Source: a virus
Taxonomy: Duplodnaviria > Heunggongvirae > Uroviricota > Caudoviricetes
Virus record (IMG/VR): IMGVR_UViG_3300021256_000058
Span: 117,823 to 181,822 of that record
Direction: 5' to 3' (one strand)
DNA: 64,000 nucleotides
Part shown: in pieces, positions 20,383 to 28,902 of the stretch
Position numbering within the stretch: position 1 is the first letter of the stretch
How the letters are laid out: each line of letters opens with the position of its first letter
Made by a program: the position numbers and the translations under genes
Notes under the pieces: generated by a model
What the model saw: only the letters and a program-made list of their open reading frames with translations
Told to the model about the DNA's origin: nothing
The model's database searches: none

Positions 20383-20858
20383 TTTGTTTTTACTTCACTA
20401 GGCATTACTTTATGTCGAACTTTATATGTACCTATACAAATAGCATCAGATTCATCCTATGTGACTTTCTTGTTATAGGTTTTTTGCACAAATGCCTAAG
20501 CATTTCGTTTCTAGTCTGGACGTGTCCGACCTTTTATACCAAGAGCAGATTTCCAAGTCACAGATGGGACAATTGTGTAGGGGAGTTTGAGCTCAGCACA
20601 TAACTCTTCTATAACTCCAAGGACTTCGCCAAGAACTTTATATGTTGCTGCGTTCTACTGTAACTAAATATCTTCAAATACCACTTCATCAATAGAATTA
20701 TTTTCAACTAATTCTATTACTTTATTACGAATATATACTAATTTATCTCCAACATCTTCGCCATATGAAGCAAATGCTCCTGATTCTATTAGGTCTCCGT
20801 CATTAAAAATTGCGTATCCCGATATTCTACTCGCCTAATCCAAGGCGAGCATTCTCAT
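20355..20858 (-). CDS. ruvC: RuvC-like Holliday junction resolvase with 6 in-frame TAG
   Basis: Its ATG overlaps the dUTPase TGA as ATGA. Translating TAG as Q gives MRMLALDQASRISGYAIFNDGDL..., which matches the RuvC motif GIDPGSRVTGYGV, and a C-terminal ...DESDAICIGTY matching the DAADALAIA motif. The length is 504 nt and it ends in TAA. Confidence 0.7.
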
Positions 20859-21292
20859 GAACCAGTACTACCGAATCCGCCACCGCGAACCGCAGTCGTA
20901 TTATCTCCATCGCAGATGGCATACGGTACGATTACGCCTTGGCCTACTCGATCGCCTTTCTTCAAAGTAACTGGTGCTAGGTTGTTAATATTATAAAGCT
21001 GGAACATAATATGTCCTTCGTTATCGGGATTGTTGTAGTAATCACCATCAACAATACCAATACCATTAGCCAGAATCAAGCCCATCTTCTTCGGTGTGGA
21101 GCTGCGGACCGCAAGTTCCAACCAGTAGCCATCATCTAGCTCACATTTGATACCTGTTGGTATCAACTTAATCTCATGCGGGCCAATCGTGACATCCTCA
21201 GCTACGAAGAAATCATAGCCAGCACTTTTTGCCGTTGCACGGACAGGCAGTTGAGCCTCGGGATATTTACTTACTCGTTCAAATTTCATCAC
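20855..21292 (-). CDS. dut: dUTP diphosphatase (trimeric dUTPase)
   Basis: Contains AGYDFFVAEDVTIGPHEIKLIPTGIK and LANGIGIVDGDYY motifs. It is free of TAG and ends in TGA. Confidence 0.85.
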   Translation of the reverse strand: MMKFERVSKYPEAQLPVRATAKSAGYDFFVAEDVTIGPHEIKLIPTGIKCELDDGYWLELAVRSSTPKKMGLILANGIGIVDGDYYNNPDNEGHIMFQLYNINNLAPVTLKKGDRVGQGVIVPYAICDGDNTTAVRGGGFGSTGS

Positions 21293-21531
21293 ATTACCTC
21301 GTAATCAATTCTTACTTCGCTTTCAGGCTCTTTTTCGTCAGTGAACTTCTTTTCAAGAGTTACTCTATACCATTCGTCAACGACTACGCCCTTCATCTTT
21401 TGCTCTCGTTTTTCGACATTATATTTTGTTAAGACAAAACGATTGTCATTTTTTGCTTCATTGACAAGATTTTCAACAAGATTCTCAGTATCTACTCTAT
21501 AAACTTCTTTAGTGGAAATAAGATATTTCAT
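21289..21531 (-). CDS. hypothetical protein
   Basis: An intact 80-aa ORF that overlaps its neighbours. Confidence 0.45.
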   Translation of the reverse strand: MKYLISTKEVYRVDTENLVENLVNEAKNDNRFVLTKYNVEKREQKMKGVVVDEWYRVTLEKKFTDEKEPESEVRIDYEVM

Positions 21532-21797
21532 TATGGATTAACCTCTATATTTAATGACATATTAGAATATTTTGAATTATCATTTTCTGCAATCTGCTGC
21601 GCAAGCATATTACAATAATCAGTAGGTCCAAAGATGCGGACCTCGGTAGTATCTGCAGAATAGCAGGCTGCTGGAATCTGTTCAACTAGATCGCTGGCTG
21701 CCGCATATTCAAGTACTTCAAATTCTCCGCCGGGACCAACTTTTGCAATAGGCTGTGTCGCGTCGAACAAATTAATATGGCATACAATTACTGGCAT
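21531..21797 (-). CDS. hypothetical protein
   Basis: An intact 88-aa ORF ending in TAA. Confidence 0.45.
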   Translation of the reverse strand: MPVIVCHINLFDATQPIAKVGPGGEFEVLEYAAASDLVEQIPAACYSADTTEVRIFGPTDYCNMLAQQIAENDNSKYSNMSLNIEVNP

Positions 21798-26020: not shown

Positions 26021-28293
26021 CGCATAATCCCCGTATGCTTGGTTCTTTCTTCAACTTCAGCTTGCTTTCCTTTATTAAAAGCAGTCTTATAGTTGCCTGT
26101 CAAATAACCAGTTACACGGCGGAGTTGCTGGATATTTTCACTACCACAAACTGGGCAATGGTCATTAAATTCACCAGTATAGCCGCAGTCAAGGCAGGTA
26201 TCATTTGGGACATTGATTGCAAAATATGGAATATCATGTTCCATAGCATAATTGACAATTTCTTCAACAGCATCAATATTGTTCAATACTGCACCATCAA
26301 GCTCCACATAAGTAATGCAACCACCATTAGAATAGCCAGTAAGCTGACTTTCAATGTCGATCTTCTCAAATGGAGACACTTCTTTCCATACAGGAACGTG
26401 CATTGAATTAGTGAAATACTCATGGTCAGAAACATTTTCAATTACACCATATTGCTCTTTAAACTTCTTCATAGCAGTATAGCAAAGATTCTCAGCAGGC
26501 GTATAATATACACCAAAGTTCAAACTATATTTCTTTTTGAATTCTGCGCAACGAGTATTAAACAATTGTTCAATATGTTTTGCAAGATTCATACCTTTAA
26601 CAGTAGTATGATCACATCCAATCAATAGCTGAAGAGCTTCGGCAAGGCCAAGTTGACCAATTACTAAAGTGCCGTGCTTAAGCGCGGAACGGATTCCCTC
26701 TTCAGGAATATAACCAGCCATTGTGCCATTTTCATACATGAATTTTGCACTTTCAGGGCTCTGGCTGCAAATCCATTCAAAACGCTCAATTAACATATCT
26801 CTTGCTTCTGCGATCTTCTGGTCAAGATATTTAAGGAAATGATCTTCAAGATTTGGATCACTAATACCATATTCATCAACTATTTGTTTTGCAAGAGTTG
26901 GAAGAATAATAGTAACAGGGCAAATATTACCACGACCATCTTTCTTAAAGCCCATACCATTAATATCGAAACCATTATAAGTTCTACAGCCCATCGTGCT
27001 TACATACTGTGTAGGATCATTTTTATCATATCCCGCATTTACTGACCAATCAACATTAGCGTAATTAGGATACAATCTCTTTGCGGTGCTTTCCAAAGCC
27101 ATGCGATAAAGATCATAGTTAGGAGTACCAGGTTTATCATTAACGCCTTTCATATACTGGAAAATACCACAAGGGAAAATAGAAGTTTTATGCAATTTAC
27201 CAAGTCCTTCAATAGAAACACTAAGGAGAGCCTTAGTTACCATTCTACCTTCTGGAAGCGTGCAAGTACCATAATTAATTGAAGTAAAAGGCAACTGATT
27301 GCCGCTACGGGATTGCAGAGTATTCAGATTATGATACATACCTTCTGCTGCCTGATGGACTTCTTTTTCAGTCATATCATAGGCATAACGATAAATATCT
27401 GCATCTTCTTTAAAATAATCATCTTCAATACCAAATTGCAAGCGTTTTGCATACCCAACTACTTCATTGATATTATGATCGTCAAGATTACCAATGTACT
27501 TGCATCCATCTGCATAATGTTTGTAGAATGATTTGCGGACATAGGGCACCATTGTCCAATCCAGATGAGTTGCACTTACTCCACCAAACTGCTGTAAACT
27601 TTGAAGCTGAAATAAAACTGCAACAAGCTGAAATGCAGTATTCACAGAACCGGCTGGCCGCACATCTGTCTGGCGAGTATTAAACCCATTAGCGAGCAAA
27701 TCATCTAATGGAAGACTTAGGCAATTATGGTCACCAACTGCATAATGATCTAAGTCATGAATGTAAATCATATTACCTTCATGGTTTGCTCTTGCCATGT
27801 CTGATACCAAATAATCAAGAGCATATTGTTTAGTCATATAACTTGTAGCTTCACCCATACGACCGCCAAATGAGTGTTCATCAATGTTAGCGTTCTGGTT
27901 CTGTACATTTCTTGCTTCGAGCTTCTCTCGAATTGGACGAATGAAATCGTCTTGTACATTACGAGCTACTTCTTTTTTATATCTATATCTAATATATGCG
28001 CGAGCCACATCACGGCGCTCTGAGCGCATCAAATAATCCTCAACCCAGTCTTGGATTAACTCTACTGGGATGGGAGCAACACTACCAATGACTTTTTTGC
28101 CAATTTCAAGCGCAATATCTGTTGCTGTATCGTTTTCATAAAGTTTTCCATCAACTTCAATGAAAGCCTTATTAATAGCATTAATAATTTTCTGCGCATC
28201 GAAGTTGACAGTTGAGCCATCACGCTTCAATACATGCATATAAATAAAACCTCCAAACCAAAATATTGTGTTAATTTTCGCGGACATCCACAA
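26017..28293 (-). CDS. nrdD: class III anaerobic ribonucleoside-triphosphate reductase
   Basis: 758 aa with an N-terminal ATP-cone (VLKRDGSTVNFDAQKI), a C-terminal Zn Cys cluster (CLDCGY...CPVCGS) and a glycyl-radical tail RVTGYL. Contains no TAG. Confidence 0.9.
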   Translation of the reverse strand: MWMSAKINTIFWFGGFIYMHVLKRDGSTVNFDAQKIINAINKAFIEVDGKLYENDTATDIALEIGKKVIGSVAPIPVELIQDWVEDYLMRSERRDVARAYIRYRYKKEVARNVQDDFIRPIREKLEARNVQNQNANIDEHSFGGRMGEATSYMTKQYALDYLVSDMARANHEGNMIYIHDLDHYAVGDHNCLSLPLDDLLANGFNTRQTDVRPAGSVNTAFQLVAVLFQLQSLQQFGGVSATHLDWTMVPYVRKSFYKHYADGCKYIGNLDDHNINEVVGYAKRLQFGIEDDYFKEDADIYRYAYDMTEKEVHQAAEGMYHNLNTLQSRSGNQLPFTSINYGTCTLPEGRMVTKALLSVSIEGLGKLHKTSIFPCGIFQYMKGVNDKPGTPNYDLYRMALESTAKRLYPNYANVDWSVNAGYDKNDPTQYVSTMGCRTYNGFDINGMGFKKDGRGNICPVTIILPTLAKQIVDEYGISDPNLEDHFLKYLDQKIAEARDMLIERFEWICSQSPESAKFMYENGTMAGYIPEEGIRSALKHGTLVIGQLGLAEALQLLIGCDHTTVKGMNLAKHIEQLFNTRCAEFKKKYSLNFGVYYTPAENLCYTAMKKFKEQYGVIENVSDHEYFTNSMHVPVWKEVSPFEKIDIESQLTGYSNGGCITYVELDGAVLNNIDAVEEIVNYAMEHDIPYFAINVPNDTCLDCGYTGEFNDHCPVCGSENIQQLRRVTGYLTGNYKTAFNKGKQAEVEERTKHTGIMR

Positions 28294-28311
28294 TATAATG
28301 ATTTTTGCAAT

Positions 28312-28902
28312 TTATTCTTTATCATTTTTCGTCCAAGCGCTGATCGCAGCCAGGACTTGTTCTACCGTTTCATCAAGCAATGCACCCGTACCATTCTGGA
28401 CTTCAACATGCTCAGGAAAACGATTATTTATCCATTTGAAGTCTTGTTCATCTGTGCCATAACGTCTAACGATTTCCGCACAGTCTGGATTCGTTTCACG
28501 CATTAGCTGGCGCAATAGCCTAATTTTATCATCAGCTACAATGTAAATAGGCAATACATCAATTGTAGGGTGCTCTATCAATAACTCCAACCCTTCTGGA
28601 TTCCATACGCCAATATTGATTTGATCGTATTTTAATTCATCAAGAGAGGTTCCATAACACCAGTCTCTAAATACTGTAGCTTCTAACATTCGATTATTCA
28701 ATACTAAATCAGTAAATTTTTCATTAGTAATAAAATGATAATCTACTCCGTCTTGTTCTCCCTCTCTCATGGGCCGAGTTGTACAAGAGACAATCTCATG
28801 GAAGCCGCCATTTGCAACGACTTCCTTAAGAATAGTATCTTTACCTGAACCGGCTTTTCCAAAGAGAGCGACTACCTTAATCTTCATCTTCTTCGCTCCC
28901 AT
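28312..28902 (-). CDS. P-loop deoxynucleoside monophosphate / nucleoside kinase
   Basis: Walker A motif ALFGKAGSGKDT in a 196-aa protein ending in TGA. Confidence 0.55.
   Translation of the reverse strand: MGAKKMKIKVVALFGKAGSGKDTILKEVVANGGFHEIVSCTTRPMREGEQDGVDYHFITNEKFTDLVLNNRMLEATVFRDWCYGTSLDELKYDQINIGVWNPEGLELLIEHPTIDVLPIYIVADDKIRLLRQLMRETNPDCAEIVRRYGTDEQDFKWINNRFPEHVEVQNGTGALLDETVEQVLAAISAWTKNDKE

What the first reader, a model, noticed from the sequence alone, without database searches (positions are those of the whole stretch)
20855..28902. A large nucleotide-supply island includes a phage-encoded NCS2 nucleobase permease and an NDT/Rcl-like enzyme
Within 8 kb lie dUTPase, an NCS2 uracil/xanthine-type permease, a nucleoside 2-deoxyribosyltransferase/Rcl-like protein, NrdG, NrdD and a dNMP kinase. 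A membrane nucleobase importer is an uncommon phage auxiliary gene. Combined with the anaerobic RNR, it suggests the phage strengthens salvage and dNTP synthesis in an anaerobic host, such as a gut anaerobe. The NDT/Rcl-like enzyme next to a permease could alternatively point to non-canonical base metabolism.
Basis: partly seen in the sequence, partly recalled or inferred. Interest (0 to 1): 0.55.

Follow-up and report, generated by a model that had tools for sequence, protein, structure and literature searches.

The report
Phage nucleobase importer paired with deoxyribosyltransferase
A large phage, probably from the rumen, carries a membrane nucleobase permease almost always paired with a base-swapping enzyme (NDT), next to anaerobic dNTP-synthesis genes; it most likely scavenges outside bases to build phage DNA, but nobody has tested this.

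Summary
Window 20855-28902 (minus strand) encodes dUTPase, an NCS2/NAT permease, an NDT-family enzyme, a second small NDT-superfamily protein (DUF4406), NrdG, NrdD and a guanylate-kinase-family kinase. They sit in a gap-free replication block.

The new point is a conserved pairing. In 62 of 64 related phage loci with enough flank, an NDT-like gene lies within 2.3 kb of the permease on the same strand. This holds across permease clades down to about 25-45% identity, in both gene orders. It also holds in cultured Clostridium phage c-st (uracil permease, NDT, thymidine kinase).

The permease keeps the two substrate-binding glutamates and the TM8 aspartate. It lacks the NAT-signature Asn and the TM3 Phe, so its substrate is open. 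The NDT is closest to the purine-specific E. faecalis EfPDT, not to Rcl/DNPH1.

Best reading: the imported base is trapped by transdeoxyribosylation, supplementing class III RNR supply in an anaerobic gut host. Non-canonical base use is not excluded, but nothing specifically supports it.

The finding is a moderately interesting, untested variant of phage nucleotide auxiliary metabolism.

The parts
20855..21292 (-). Trimeric-type dUTPase (145 aa)
   Evidence: PF00692 E 4.8e-16; PHROG 135 E 4e-47. A dUTPase lies near the permease in most related loci.
21289..22288 (-). Three small ORFs (80, 88 and 166 aa) of unknown function. They are conserved between permease and dUTPase in the window-type lineage.
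   Evidence: No Pfam or PHROG hit. Homologues sit at the same position in L007-L012, L020, L029, L037 and L042-L044.
22275..22628 (-). 117-aa ORF with one in-frame TAG, immediately after the permease. Function unknown.
   Evidence: Called as a 117-aa product on the source contig. The in-frame codon is TAG. No Pfam hit.
22628..23878 (-). NCS2/NAT nucleobase:cation symporter homologue (416 aa). It belongs to an atypical, phage-borne subfamily.
   Evidence: PF00860, 168.9 bits. The best NCBIfam match is uracil permease PRK10720, 195 bits against a cut-off of 477. UraA matches at E 1e-39. E248, D252 and E297 are invariant in 13 phage homologues. UraA F73 is replaced by G70 and N291 by G298.
23875..24138 (-). 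Small ORF (76-87 aa) between NDT and permease, overlapping both. It is specific to this lineage.
   Evidence: Found only in L001 and the source contigs.
24086..24604 (-). Nucleoside 2'-deoxyribosyltransferase-family enzyme (172 aa), EfPDT-like
   Evidence: PF05014 E 3.9e-11. PDB 7M5H (EfPDT) E 7.6e-17, 31% identity. Tyr4, Asp62, Glu88 and Asn139-Leu140-Tyr141 are conserved. The AF2 model has pLDDT 75, and its top Foldseek hits are NDT/PDT structures.
24629..25240 (-). 203-aa protein with one TAG: an N-terminal TM helix, a Pro/Ser/Thr-rich linker and a C-terminal domain. Function unknown; specific to this lineage.
   Evidence: No Pfam hit.
25230..25541 (-). DUF4406 protein (103 aa), a second small member of the NDT superfamily
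   Evidence: PF14359 E 7e-7; PHROG 355 E 1.3e-5. It lies between NrdG and NDT in 16 related loci.
25538..26020 (-). NrdG, the radical-SAM activase of class III RNR
   Evidence: TIGR02491, 143.8 bits against 126.1. The CHRHCPGC (CX3CX2C) motif is present in the translation.
26017..28293 (-). NrdD, anaerobic ribonucleoside-triphosphate reductase with an ATP-cone
   Evidence: TIGR02487, 486 bits against 326. ATP-cone, NRDD and Gly_radical domains are recorded on the source contig. The C-terminal RVTGY glycyl-radical motif and four Cys residues are in the translation.
28312..28902 (-). Guanylate-kinase-family P-loop kinase (191-196 aa)
   Evidence: PF00625, 64 bits; PHROG 1815 E 1.4e-37. Human GUK1 matches at E 1.2e-11, with the TTR...R.GE..G.DY.F GMP-site motif aligned.

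Best explanation
The island is an early-expressed dNTP-supply module of a large (about 173 kb), TAG-recoded phage. The source is probably sheep rumen, and the host is probably a Gram-positive anaerobe.

Its distinctive core is a two-gene unit. The NCS2 permease is inserted into the host membrane and imports a free nucleobase, driven by the proton gradient. The adjacent NDT-family enzyme traps that base by transferring 2'-deoxyribose onto it from a deoxynucleoside. The donor probably comes from host-DNA breakdown or from the medium. Host or phage kinases then phosphorylate the new deoxynucleoside.

In parallel, NrdD/NrdG reduce NTPs to dNTPs anaerobically. dUTPase converts dUTP to dUMP for thymidylate synthesis and keeps uracil out of DNA. 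The guanylate-kinase homologue raises (d)GMP to (d)GDP.

Shown here: the gene identities, conservation of the catalytic and binding residues, and the near-universal NDT-permease linkage. Inferred: the direction of transport, the identity of the base, coupling through metabolic trapping, and early expression.
For: 1. Gene identities rest.

2. Linkage. Of 64 phage loci with at least 2.5 kb on both flanks, 62 have an NDT-like gene within 2.3 kb of the permease, always on the same strand. This holds in both gene orders. It holds where PolIII alpha is only 21-24% identical. It holds in a second permease clade only 44% identical to the window's. It holds in more distant clades, where the genes overlap stop to start (L081, L082, L083).

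3. Two unrelated NDT-like families (c3 and c82) occupy the same slot.

4. Cultured Clostridium phage c-st carries uracil permease (CST091), NDT (CST093) and thymidine kinase (CST095) together. That adds the missing kinase step.

5. Relatives add further supply genes at the same place: an NT5C deoxynucleotidase that produces the NDT donor, a PnrA/Bmp nucleoside-binding lipoprotein, a formate/nitrite-family channel next to NrdG, and a DNMK kinase.

6. A distant permease homologue on a 192-kb contig whose neighbouring genes look bacterial (L084; P0563 was retrieved at 37% identity to P0132, not compared directly with the window) sits next to a PNP/UDP-family nucleoside phosphorylase. That enzyme is the functional analogue of NDT.

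7. The permease keeps E248, D252 and E297. These correspond to UraA E241 and E290, which bind uracil, and to the H245 proton-coupling position.

8. The NDT keeps its nucleophile Glu88 together with Tyr4 and Asp62.

9. The island's annotated enzyme and transporter genes in the window, and PolIII alpha next to it, contain no TAG codon, although TAG is a sense codon elsewhere in the genome. This fits expression before any code switch.

10. By analogy (own knowledge), bacterial operons pair a base permease with the first trapping enzyme: upp-uraA, xpt-pbuX and codBA.
Against: - No transport or enzyme assay exists for any member.
- The substrate hints conflict. The permease's nearest characterised relatives are uracil permeases, and c-st links the pair to thymidine kinase, which points to pyrimidines. 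The NDT's nearest characterised relative, EfPDT, is strictly purine-specific and shares the unusual NLY motif.
- One catalytically important Asp (EfPDT Asp80) aligns with Pro82 in the phage enzyme. Transferase chemistry may therefore be altered.
- No deoxynucleoside kinase, thymidine kinase or thymidylate synthase was found in the 64-kb window or in the +/-10 kb flanks of relatives. The pathway as drawn therefore depends on host enzymes or on unseen parts of the genome.
- De- and re-phosphorylating nucleotides is energetically wasteful for a phage that could reuse dNMPs directly.
Confidence: 0.55

Rival explanations
1. Ribonucleotide-route salvage. The permease imports uracil or another base. 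Host phosphoribosyltransferases convert it to NMP and then NTP. NrdD reduces these to dNTPs, and dUTPase channels dUTP towards dTMP. The NDT is a separate recycling enzyme, and its adjacency to the permease reflects shared regulation rather than substrate hand-over.
For: The permease is closest to uracil permeases. NrdD, NrdG and dUTPase are co-located in most loci. Some relatives have a formate channel next to NrdG, which shows selection for feeding the RNR.
Against: No phosphoribosyltransferase is linked to the permease in any locus examined. The linked enzyme in 62 of 64 loci is an NDT-family protein, often with overlapping stop and start codons. In c-st the third partner is thymidine kinase, a deoxynucleoside-route enzyme.
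Confidence: 0.2
2. Non-canonical base pathway. The permease imports a modified or unusual base from the gut environment. The NDT installs it on deoxyribose for incorporation into phage DNA, as protection against restriction.
For: The binding pocket differs from characterised uracil permeases at two contact positions, both changed to glycine (UraA F73 to G70, N291 to G298), and the change is conserved across the phage clade. The NDT is unusually conserved: 84-92% identity among the best 120 of its 1,923 metagenomic homologues, and higher than the permease or polymerase across lineages. The altered Asp80 position is shown.
Against: The window genes scanned with Pfam or PHROGs gave no base-modifying, glycosyl- or amino-transferase hit and no thymidylate-synthase-like hydroxymethylase hit; the TAG-recoded late genes in 1-19,700 were scanned only as table-11 fragments against PHROGs. 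The accompanying enzymes (dUTPase, GK, NrdD) handle canonical nucleotides. To my knowledge, c-st has not been reported to carry modified DNA.
Confidence: 0.1
3. The NDT-like protein works as a hydrolase (Rcl/DNPH1-like or a nucleoside hydrolase) that releases bases. The permease then moves the freed base, for export or re-uptake. The phage thereby reshapes or depletes a particular nucleotide pool rather than building it.
For: The Asp that contacts the sugar in NDTs (EfPDT Asp80) is replaced by Pro-Ser. DNPH1 does appear among the fold matches.
Against: phmmer finds no DNPH1/Rcl hit at E<=1, whereas EfPDT scores 7.6e-17. Foldseek ranks DNPH1 36th (E 7e-3) behind more than 30 NDT/PDT chains. The N-terminal motif YLAGPIF matches EfPDT's YFAGPLF rather than the phosphate-binding GSIRGG motif of DNPH1 (own knowledge of the DNPH1 sequence). 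NCS2 members characterised so far are importers.
Confidence: 0.08
4. The permease is a host gene carried as a passenger (a moron) or an assembly or binning artefact, with no role in phage replication.
For: Most 'phage' database hits to NCS2 permeases are host contamination or prophage flanks, for example VT2-Sakai pyrP and the fragmentary Listeria and Staphylococcus records.
Against: The gene is embedded on the same strand in a gap-free phage replication block. It is conserved in more than 70 viral contigs of 100-240 kb. In relatives it carries phage-style TAG=Gln codons inside the gene. Its nearest clearly cellular homologues are only about 35% identical.
Confidence: 0.02

Closest known systems
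Clostridium phage c-st, genes CST091 to CST095 (NC_007581)
   Same: A large phage (186 kb) of an anaerobic Firmicute with an annotated uracil permease, an NDT two genes downstream and a thymidine kinase, next to topoisomerase II genes. Its permease shows the same atypical motifs: TM3 SISG, TM8 FEMLSD, TM10 FSEA.
   Different: It is only about 21-26% identical to the window-clade permeases. The gene order is permease then NDT, and a TK is present. The function was never tested. No NrdDG or dUTPase is annotated in the 15-kb stretch examined.
E. coli UraA, the NCS2/NAT uracil:H+ symporter (PDB 3QE7, 5XLS)
   Same: Full-length homology (E 1e-39). The substrate-binding Glu residues in TM8 and TM10 are conserved, as is the YGE motif.
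   Different: H245 is Asp, as in most family members. N291 of the NAT signature is Gly, and F73 is Gly. The score is far below the uracil-permease equivalog cut-off (195 against 477 bits). The genomic partner is an NDT rather than upp.
Enterococcus faecalis EfPDT (PDB 7M5H), a type I purine 2'-deoxyribosyltransferase
   Same: 31% identity over the whole length. The inserted region between beta4 and the following helix is shared. Tyr, Asp and Glu catalytic residues and the unusual NLY motif are conserved.
   Different: EfPDT Asp80 aligns with Pro82. The phage enzyme's specificity is unknown, and it is encoded next to a pyrimidine-type permease.
Lactobacillus NDT-dependent deoxynucleoside salvage (own knowledge)
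   Same: The logic is the same: one deoxynucleoside plus free bases gives all four deoxynucleosides through NDT, and deoxynucleoside kinases then act.
   Different: That system is cellular, is not linked to a dedicated base permease, and serves organisms with weak de novo dNTP synthesis. The phage also carries a full class III RNR.
Bacterial permease-plus-trapping-enzyme operons: upp-uraA, xpt-pbuX, codBA (own knowledge)
   Same: A nucleobase transporter is co-transcribed with the first enzyme that consumes the imported base.
   Different: The trapping enzyme here is a deoxyribosyltransferase, not a phosphoribosyltransferase or a deaminase. The product is therefore a deoxynucleoside committed to DNA.

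Membership tests
NCS2/NAT (COG2233, Pfam PF00860) | Full-length match to the family profile above the curated cut-off | tested here: met
   168.9 bits against 27, model positions 2-385 of 389. TIGR00801 gives E 1.4e-55 but stays below its cut-off of 291.8.
NCS2/NAT (COG2233, Pfam PF00860) | TM8 acidic pair (UraA E241 with H245; ExxxD in most members) and TM10 Glu or Gln (UraA E290) that bind substrate and proton | tested here: met
   E248, D252 and E297 are invariant in 13 phage homologues. 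The register is fixed by the SVCT1 alignment MMECLSDH / IIESIGDY and by a 95-sequence alignment. The residue roles come from PMC5539350.
NCS2/NAT (COG2233, Pfam PF00860) | NAT signature Asn directly after the TM10 Glu/Gln (UraA N291), and the TM3 Phe (UraA F73) | tested here: not met
   Gly298 and Gly70 occupy these positions in the window. In 39 phage-clade sequences the TM10 position is G in 37 and S in 2, and the TM3 position is G in all 39. The nearest other clades have S, A or G.
Uracil permease equivalog (UraA/PyrP, NCBIfam PRK10720) | Score above the equivalog cut-off | tested here: not met
   195 bits against 477. RutG scores 163 against 759, and PbuX 126 against 414.
NCS2/NAT | Demonstrated nucleobase transport | not testable with these tools
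   Needs uptake assays.
Nucleoside 2'-deoxyribosyltransferase (PF05014) | Profile match above the cut-off, and an NDT fold | tested here: met
   43.6 bits against 28.8. The AF2 model (pLDDT 75) has 7M5H, 7O62 and CtNDT as its top Foldseek hits, with TM-scores of 0.55-0.73.
Nucleoside 2'-deoxyribosyltransferase (PF05014) | Catalytic Glu nucleophile with the Tyr and Asp partners (EfPDT Glu86, Tyr5, Asp60), and the NL[M/Y] motif | tested here: met
   Glu88, Tyr4, Asp62 and Asn139-Leu140-Tyr141. The three catalytic residues are invariant in 34 family members, and the NLY motif is invariant in 20 homologues.
Nucleoside 2'-deoxyribosyltransferase (PF05014) | Second sugar-binding Asp (EfPDT Asp80, LlNDT Asp92) | tested here: inconclusive
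   It aligns with Pro82. An invariant Asp79 lies three residues upstream and could substitute after a loop shift.
Rcl/DNPH1 (2'-deoxynucleoside 5'-phosphate N-hydrolase) | Closer similarity to DNPH1 than to NDTs | tested here: not met
   No DNPH1 chain at E<=1 by phmmer. The Foldseek rank is 36, E 7e-3.
Class III (anaerobic) ribonucleotide reductase NrdD/NrdG | Equivalog-level profile matches, a glycyl-radical motif, and a radical-SAM CX3CX2C motif | tested here: met
   TIGR02487 gives 486 bits against 326, and TIGR02491 gives 143.8 against 126.1. RVTGY and CHRHCPGC are present in the translations.
Guanylate kinase (PF00625) | Domain match and the GMP-binding motif | tested here: met
   64 bits against 25.2. 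The motif is aligned to human GUK1. The equivalog cut-off is not reached (74 against 160), so the substrate range is open.
T4-type dNMP kinase (PF21448 DNMK, PHROG 139) | Profile match | tested here: not met
   No DNMK Pfam hit for the window protein, and only a weak P-loop match to PHROG 139 (E 3e-5). True DNMK genes do occur in relatives.

The most novel reading that the evidence does not exclude
The NDT-permease pair is a dedicated route by which a large group of gut and rumen phages take a base from the environment, possibly a non-standard one, and commit it directly to deoxynucleoside form for their own DNA. Part of the phage's DNA chemistry or composition would then be set by what the host cell imports under phage control.
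Probability: 0.1. Interest if true: 0.85.

Novelty: new variant of a known kind. Interest (0 to 1): 0.5.

Why it matters
Phage auxiliary genes for nucleotide supply are well known, but they act inside the cell. A phage-encoded membrane importer translationally coupled to a base-swapping enzyme would mean these phages draw on the extracellular nucleobase pool of the gut, not only on host DNA and host biosynthesis.

The module is widespread. Seventy IMG/VR viral contigs carry it. The protein searches returned 2,853 permease and 1,923 NDT homologues. It occurs in several phage lineages of 100-240 kb.

It is simple to test with two proteins. It would also give a substrate to an uncharacterised NCS2 subfamily whose binding pocket is altered.

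The papers in the searched library contain no description of it. The genes have, however, been annotated in phage c-st and in a Caudoviricetes MAG, where the permease is named 'uracil transporter'.

Tried and rejected
- Megablast of the 8-kb island against 50,697 phage records found nothing.
- tblastn of the permease against those records gave mostly host contamination or prophage flanks. Only c-st was a true phage context.
- The direct UraA pairwise and MAFFT alignments misplace TM8 by seven residues, which made E241 and H245 look lost. This was corrected with the SVCT1 alignment and a 95-sequence alignment.
- I first took PDB 7M5H for the Chroococcidiopsis enzyme. It is E. faecalis EfPDT, as shown. 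The residue mapping was redone from that paper.
- The promoter scan gave fewer sites than shuffled sequence (39 against 49.8) and is uninformative.
- A search for thymidine kinase in the window and all loci with the c-st TK found none.
- Pfam scans of 20 further minus-strand genes found no thymidylate synthase, dNK or base-modifying enzymes.
- An attempt to walk beyond the window end failed, because that protein is not on record.
- The sample accession SRR873596 was not found in the literature library. The sheep-rumen origin rests on my recollection of that study and on the record name.
- DUF4406 has no solved relative by sequence.

Full report
**1. The observation**

The window is part of a large phage genome. 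All genes from about 19,700 to 64,000 lie on the minus strand. They include PolIII alpha (28877-32737), a Dda-like helicase, RecJ, primase, DnaB, an NAD-dependent ligase and two topoisomerase II subunits.

- dUTPase, 20855-21292: PF00692, E 4.8e-16.
- NCS2 permease, 22628-23878: PF00860, 168.9 bits, nearly the whole model.
- NDT-family protein, 24086-24604: PF05014, 43.6 bits against a cut-off of 28.8.
- NrdG, 25538-26020: TIGR02491, above its cut-off.
- NrdD, 26017-28293: TIGR02487, 486 bits against 326.
- P-loop kinase, 28312-28902.

NrdD carries the C-terminal RVTGY glycyl-radical motif, and NrdG carries CX3CX2C.

The kinase is a guanylate-kinase homologue with the GMP-site motif aligned to human GUK1. 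It is not a T4-type dNMP kinase.

**2. Gene map under the right genetic code**

The source contig's gene calls include products that table 11 breaks. The in-frame stops are all TAG. There are six in a RuvC-like gene (20355-20858; Pfam RuvC once TAG is read as Gln). There is one in a 117-aa gene right after the permease (22275-22628). There is one in a 203-aa membrane-anchored protein (24629-25240).

With TAG read as sense, the minus-strand block 19716-34033 becomes gap-free. It then holds 17 genes, and none of them ends in TAG. The plus-strand late region (1-19,700) more than doubles its long-ORF content. Making TGA sense gives no gain in that late region.

In relatives L002-L005, TAG codons lie inside the permease gene itself. 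They align with Gln of the window protein in 10 of 11 cases. So TAG is read as Gln.

In the window, the island's annotated enzyme and transporter genes, and PolIII alpha next to it, contain no TAG. This fits early expression.

**3. The permease**

It matches E. coli UraA over its full length (E 1e-39). Its best NCBIfam model is uracil permease, but the score is far below the equivalog cut-off (195 against 477 bits). RutG and PbuX score lower.

Pairwise alignments to UraA misplace TM8. The alignment to SVCT1 (MMECLSDH against IIESIGDY) and a 95-sequence alignment of 50%-identity cluster representatives fix the register.
- E248 corresponds to UraA E241.
- D252 corresponds to H245. Asp is the majority state in the family.
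- E297 corresponds to E290.

E241 and E290 make the hydrogen bonds to uracil, and E241 with H245 are the proposed proton-coupling pair (PMC5539350). All three residues are invariant in 13 phage homologues.

Two other pocket positions differ, and they differ consistently. UraA F73 is Gly. The NAT-signature Asn291 is Gly in the clade and Ser, Ala or Gly in neighbouring clades.

The protein is therefore a genuine NCS2/NAT member that is probably functional. It belongs to a distinct subfamily whose substrate cannot be read off.

**4. The NDT-like enzyme**

Its best solved relative is PDB 7M5H (E 7.6e-17, 31% identity). That entry is E. faecalis EfPDT, a tetrameric type I enzyme that acts only on purine 2'-deoxyribonucleosides (PMC12372993).

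EfPDT's important residues are Tyr5, Asp60, Asp80, Glu86, Asn130 and Tyr132. In the phage protein:
- Tyr4, Asp62, Glu88 and Asn139-Leu140-Tyr141 are conserved, and they are invariant across homologues.
- Asp80 aligns with Pro82, with an invariant Asp79 close by.

An AF2 model (pLDDT 75) retrieves NDT and PDT structures first. DNPH1/Rcl appears only at rank 36. 'Rcl-like' is therefore not supported.

**5. The key comparative result**

The permease occurs in 45 IMG/VR contigs at 64-100% identity (contigs up to 240 kb). A second clade, 44% identical, occurs in 25 more. Further clades at 35-60% identity to P0132, a 37%-identical relative of the window permease, lie on contigs of 130-190 kb.

The nearest clearly cellular homologues are only about 35% identical: an Acholeplasmataceae genome and Christensenellaceae MAGs.

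Of 64 loci with at least 2.5 kb on both flanks, 62 have an NDT-like gene within 2.3 kb of the permease, always on the same strand.
- The order is NDT then permease in the window type, and permease then NDT in others.
- The pair persists where PolIII alpha is only 21-24% identical.
- Two unrelated NDT-like families alternate in the same slot.
- In more distant clades the two genes overlap stop to start (L081-L083).

Cultured Clostridium phage c-st has uracil permease, one ORF, NDT, one ORF and then thymidine kinase. Its permease carries the same atypical motifs.

A distant permease homologue on a 192-kb contig whose neighbouring genes look bacterial (L084; P0563 was retrieved at 37% identity to P0132 and was not compared directly with the window) sits next to a PNP/UDP-family nucleoside phosphorylase.

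Relatives add further supply genes around the pair:
- an NT5C deoxynucleotidase;
- a PnrA/Bmp nucleoside-binding lipoprotein;
- a formate/nitrite-family channel beside NrdG;
- a DNMK kinase.

**6. Mechanism**

The most economical reading is base import coupled to metabolic trapping by transdeoxyribosylation. This supplements the class III RNR route. dUTPase and the GK homologue serve the canonical pools.

This matches the logic of Lactobacillus NDT salvage and of bacterial permease-plus-salvage-enzyme operons (own knowledge).

The base is not identified. The permease's relatives and the TK in c-st point to uracil or thymine. The similarity of the NDT to EfPDT, with the NLY motif, points to purines.

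No kinase for deoxynucleosides and no thymidylate synthase were seen in the 64-kb window or in the flanks of relatives. About 108 kb of the genome could not be examined.

**7. Rivals**

- *Ribonucleotide-route salvage through host PRTases.* This is plausible, but it does not explain the NDT linkage.
- *Non-canonical base import.* It is compatible with the altered pocket and with the very high conservation of the NDT. No modification enzyme accompanies the pair among the window genes scanned.
- *A hydrolase or Rcl-like role.* disfavour it.
- *A host-passenger gene or assembly artefact.* Searches exclude it.

**8. Host and habitat**

- The class III RNR implies anaerobiosis.
- The lysin is CHAP plus SH3, which is typical of phages of Gram-positive hosts (own knowledge).
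- Close homologues lie on contigs binned into Clostridia MAGs and in a water-buffalo caecum MAG.
- The window's own contigs come from samples named SHIW14 and from run SRR873596. I recall these as sheep rumen, but I could not verify that.

**9. Novelty and score**

The component families are well known, and NDT genes are common in phages. A phage 'uracil permease' has been annotated in c-st and in a Caudoviricetes MAG.

I found no paper in the library describing a phage NCS2 transporter or its coupling to NDT.

I rate this a new variant of a known kind (phage nucleotide auxiliary metabolism), with moderate interest. It is widespread, coherent and easy to test, but it is conceptually an extension of salvage.

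Noticed in passing
window 20355-20858, 22275-22628, 24629-25240 and 1-19700; L002-L005 permease genes: TAG is read as a sense codon, apparently Gln. All in-frame stops are TAG. None of 17 consecutive genes ends in TAG. The late-gene region more than doubles its ORF content when TAG is sense. TAG aligns with Gln in 10 of 11 cases in relatives' permease genes. No tRNA gene lies in the window.
   Followed up: partly
L015 8254-8916 (also L021, L022, L045): A formate/nitrite-transporter-family channel (PF01226, E 1.6e-21) is encoded between NrdG and DUF4406 in related phages. Formate is the reductant of class III RNR (own knowledge), so this looks like a phage-encoded reductant supply.
   Followed up: partly
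L023 12048-13250 (also L024): A PnrA/Bmp-like nucleoside-binding lipoprotein (PF02608, E 5e-24) with a lipoprotein-type signal sequence is encoded next to the permease in some relatives. It is a second extracellular nucleoside or base capture component in phages.
   Followed up: partly
L006 5042-5614; L026, L027, L036, L038, L040 after the NDT; L083 1-14: An NT5C-type 5'(3')-deoxyribonucleotidase (PF06941) accompanies the NDT-permease pair in several lineages. It would generate the deoxynucleoside donors for the NDT.
   Followed up: partly
L007-L012, L043, L044 (NrdD region); L046 6077-7546; L048 1385-3055: NrdD is split by HNH or GIY-YIG endonuclease genes in several relatives, an intron- or intein-like arrangement. 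In two contigs the NDT domain is fused to a GIY-YIG/NUMOD-type homing endonuclease.
   Followed up: no
window 56294-60835 and 62333-63163: There is a cluster resembling an RNA-repair and counter-defence kit. It holds RNA ligase (59609-60835), an AAA_33 kinase (56979-57473), two metallophosphoesterases, a NADAR domain protein (58076-58555) and an SPFH/Band-7 protein (58672-59565).
   Followed up: no
window 19653-19689: A perfect 17-bp stem, acting as a bidirectional terminator-like hairpin, sits exactly where the plus-strand late genes and the minus-strand replication block converge.
   Followed up: no
L084 3922-6401: On a 192-kb contig whose neighbouring genes (DinB, RelA/SpoT, DHH) look bacterial, a distant permease homologue lies directly after a PNP/UDP-family nucleoside phosphorylase. 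This is a cellular counterpart of the phage NDT-permease pairing.
   Followed up: no
L082 7921-9060: A TnpB/OrfB_IS605 (Cas12f-like) gene lies 1.6 kb from the NDT-permease pair in a 158-kb phage contig.
   Followed up: no
window 24086-24604 versus loci: The NDT is much more conserved than its neighbours. It is 72-88% identical across lineages in which the permease is 44-72% and PolIII alpha 40-57% identical where compared (the 44% permease clade was not compared for PolIII alpha). The best 120 of its 1,923 metagenomic homologues are 84-92% identical. The reason is unexplained.
   Followed up: no
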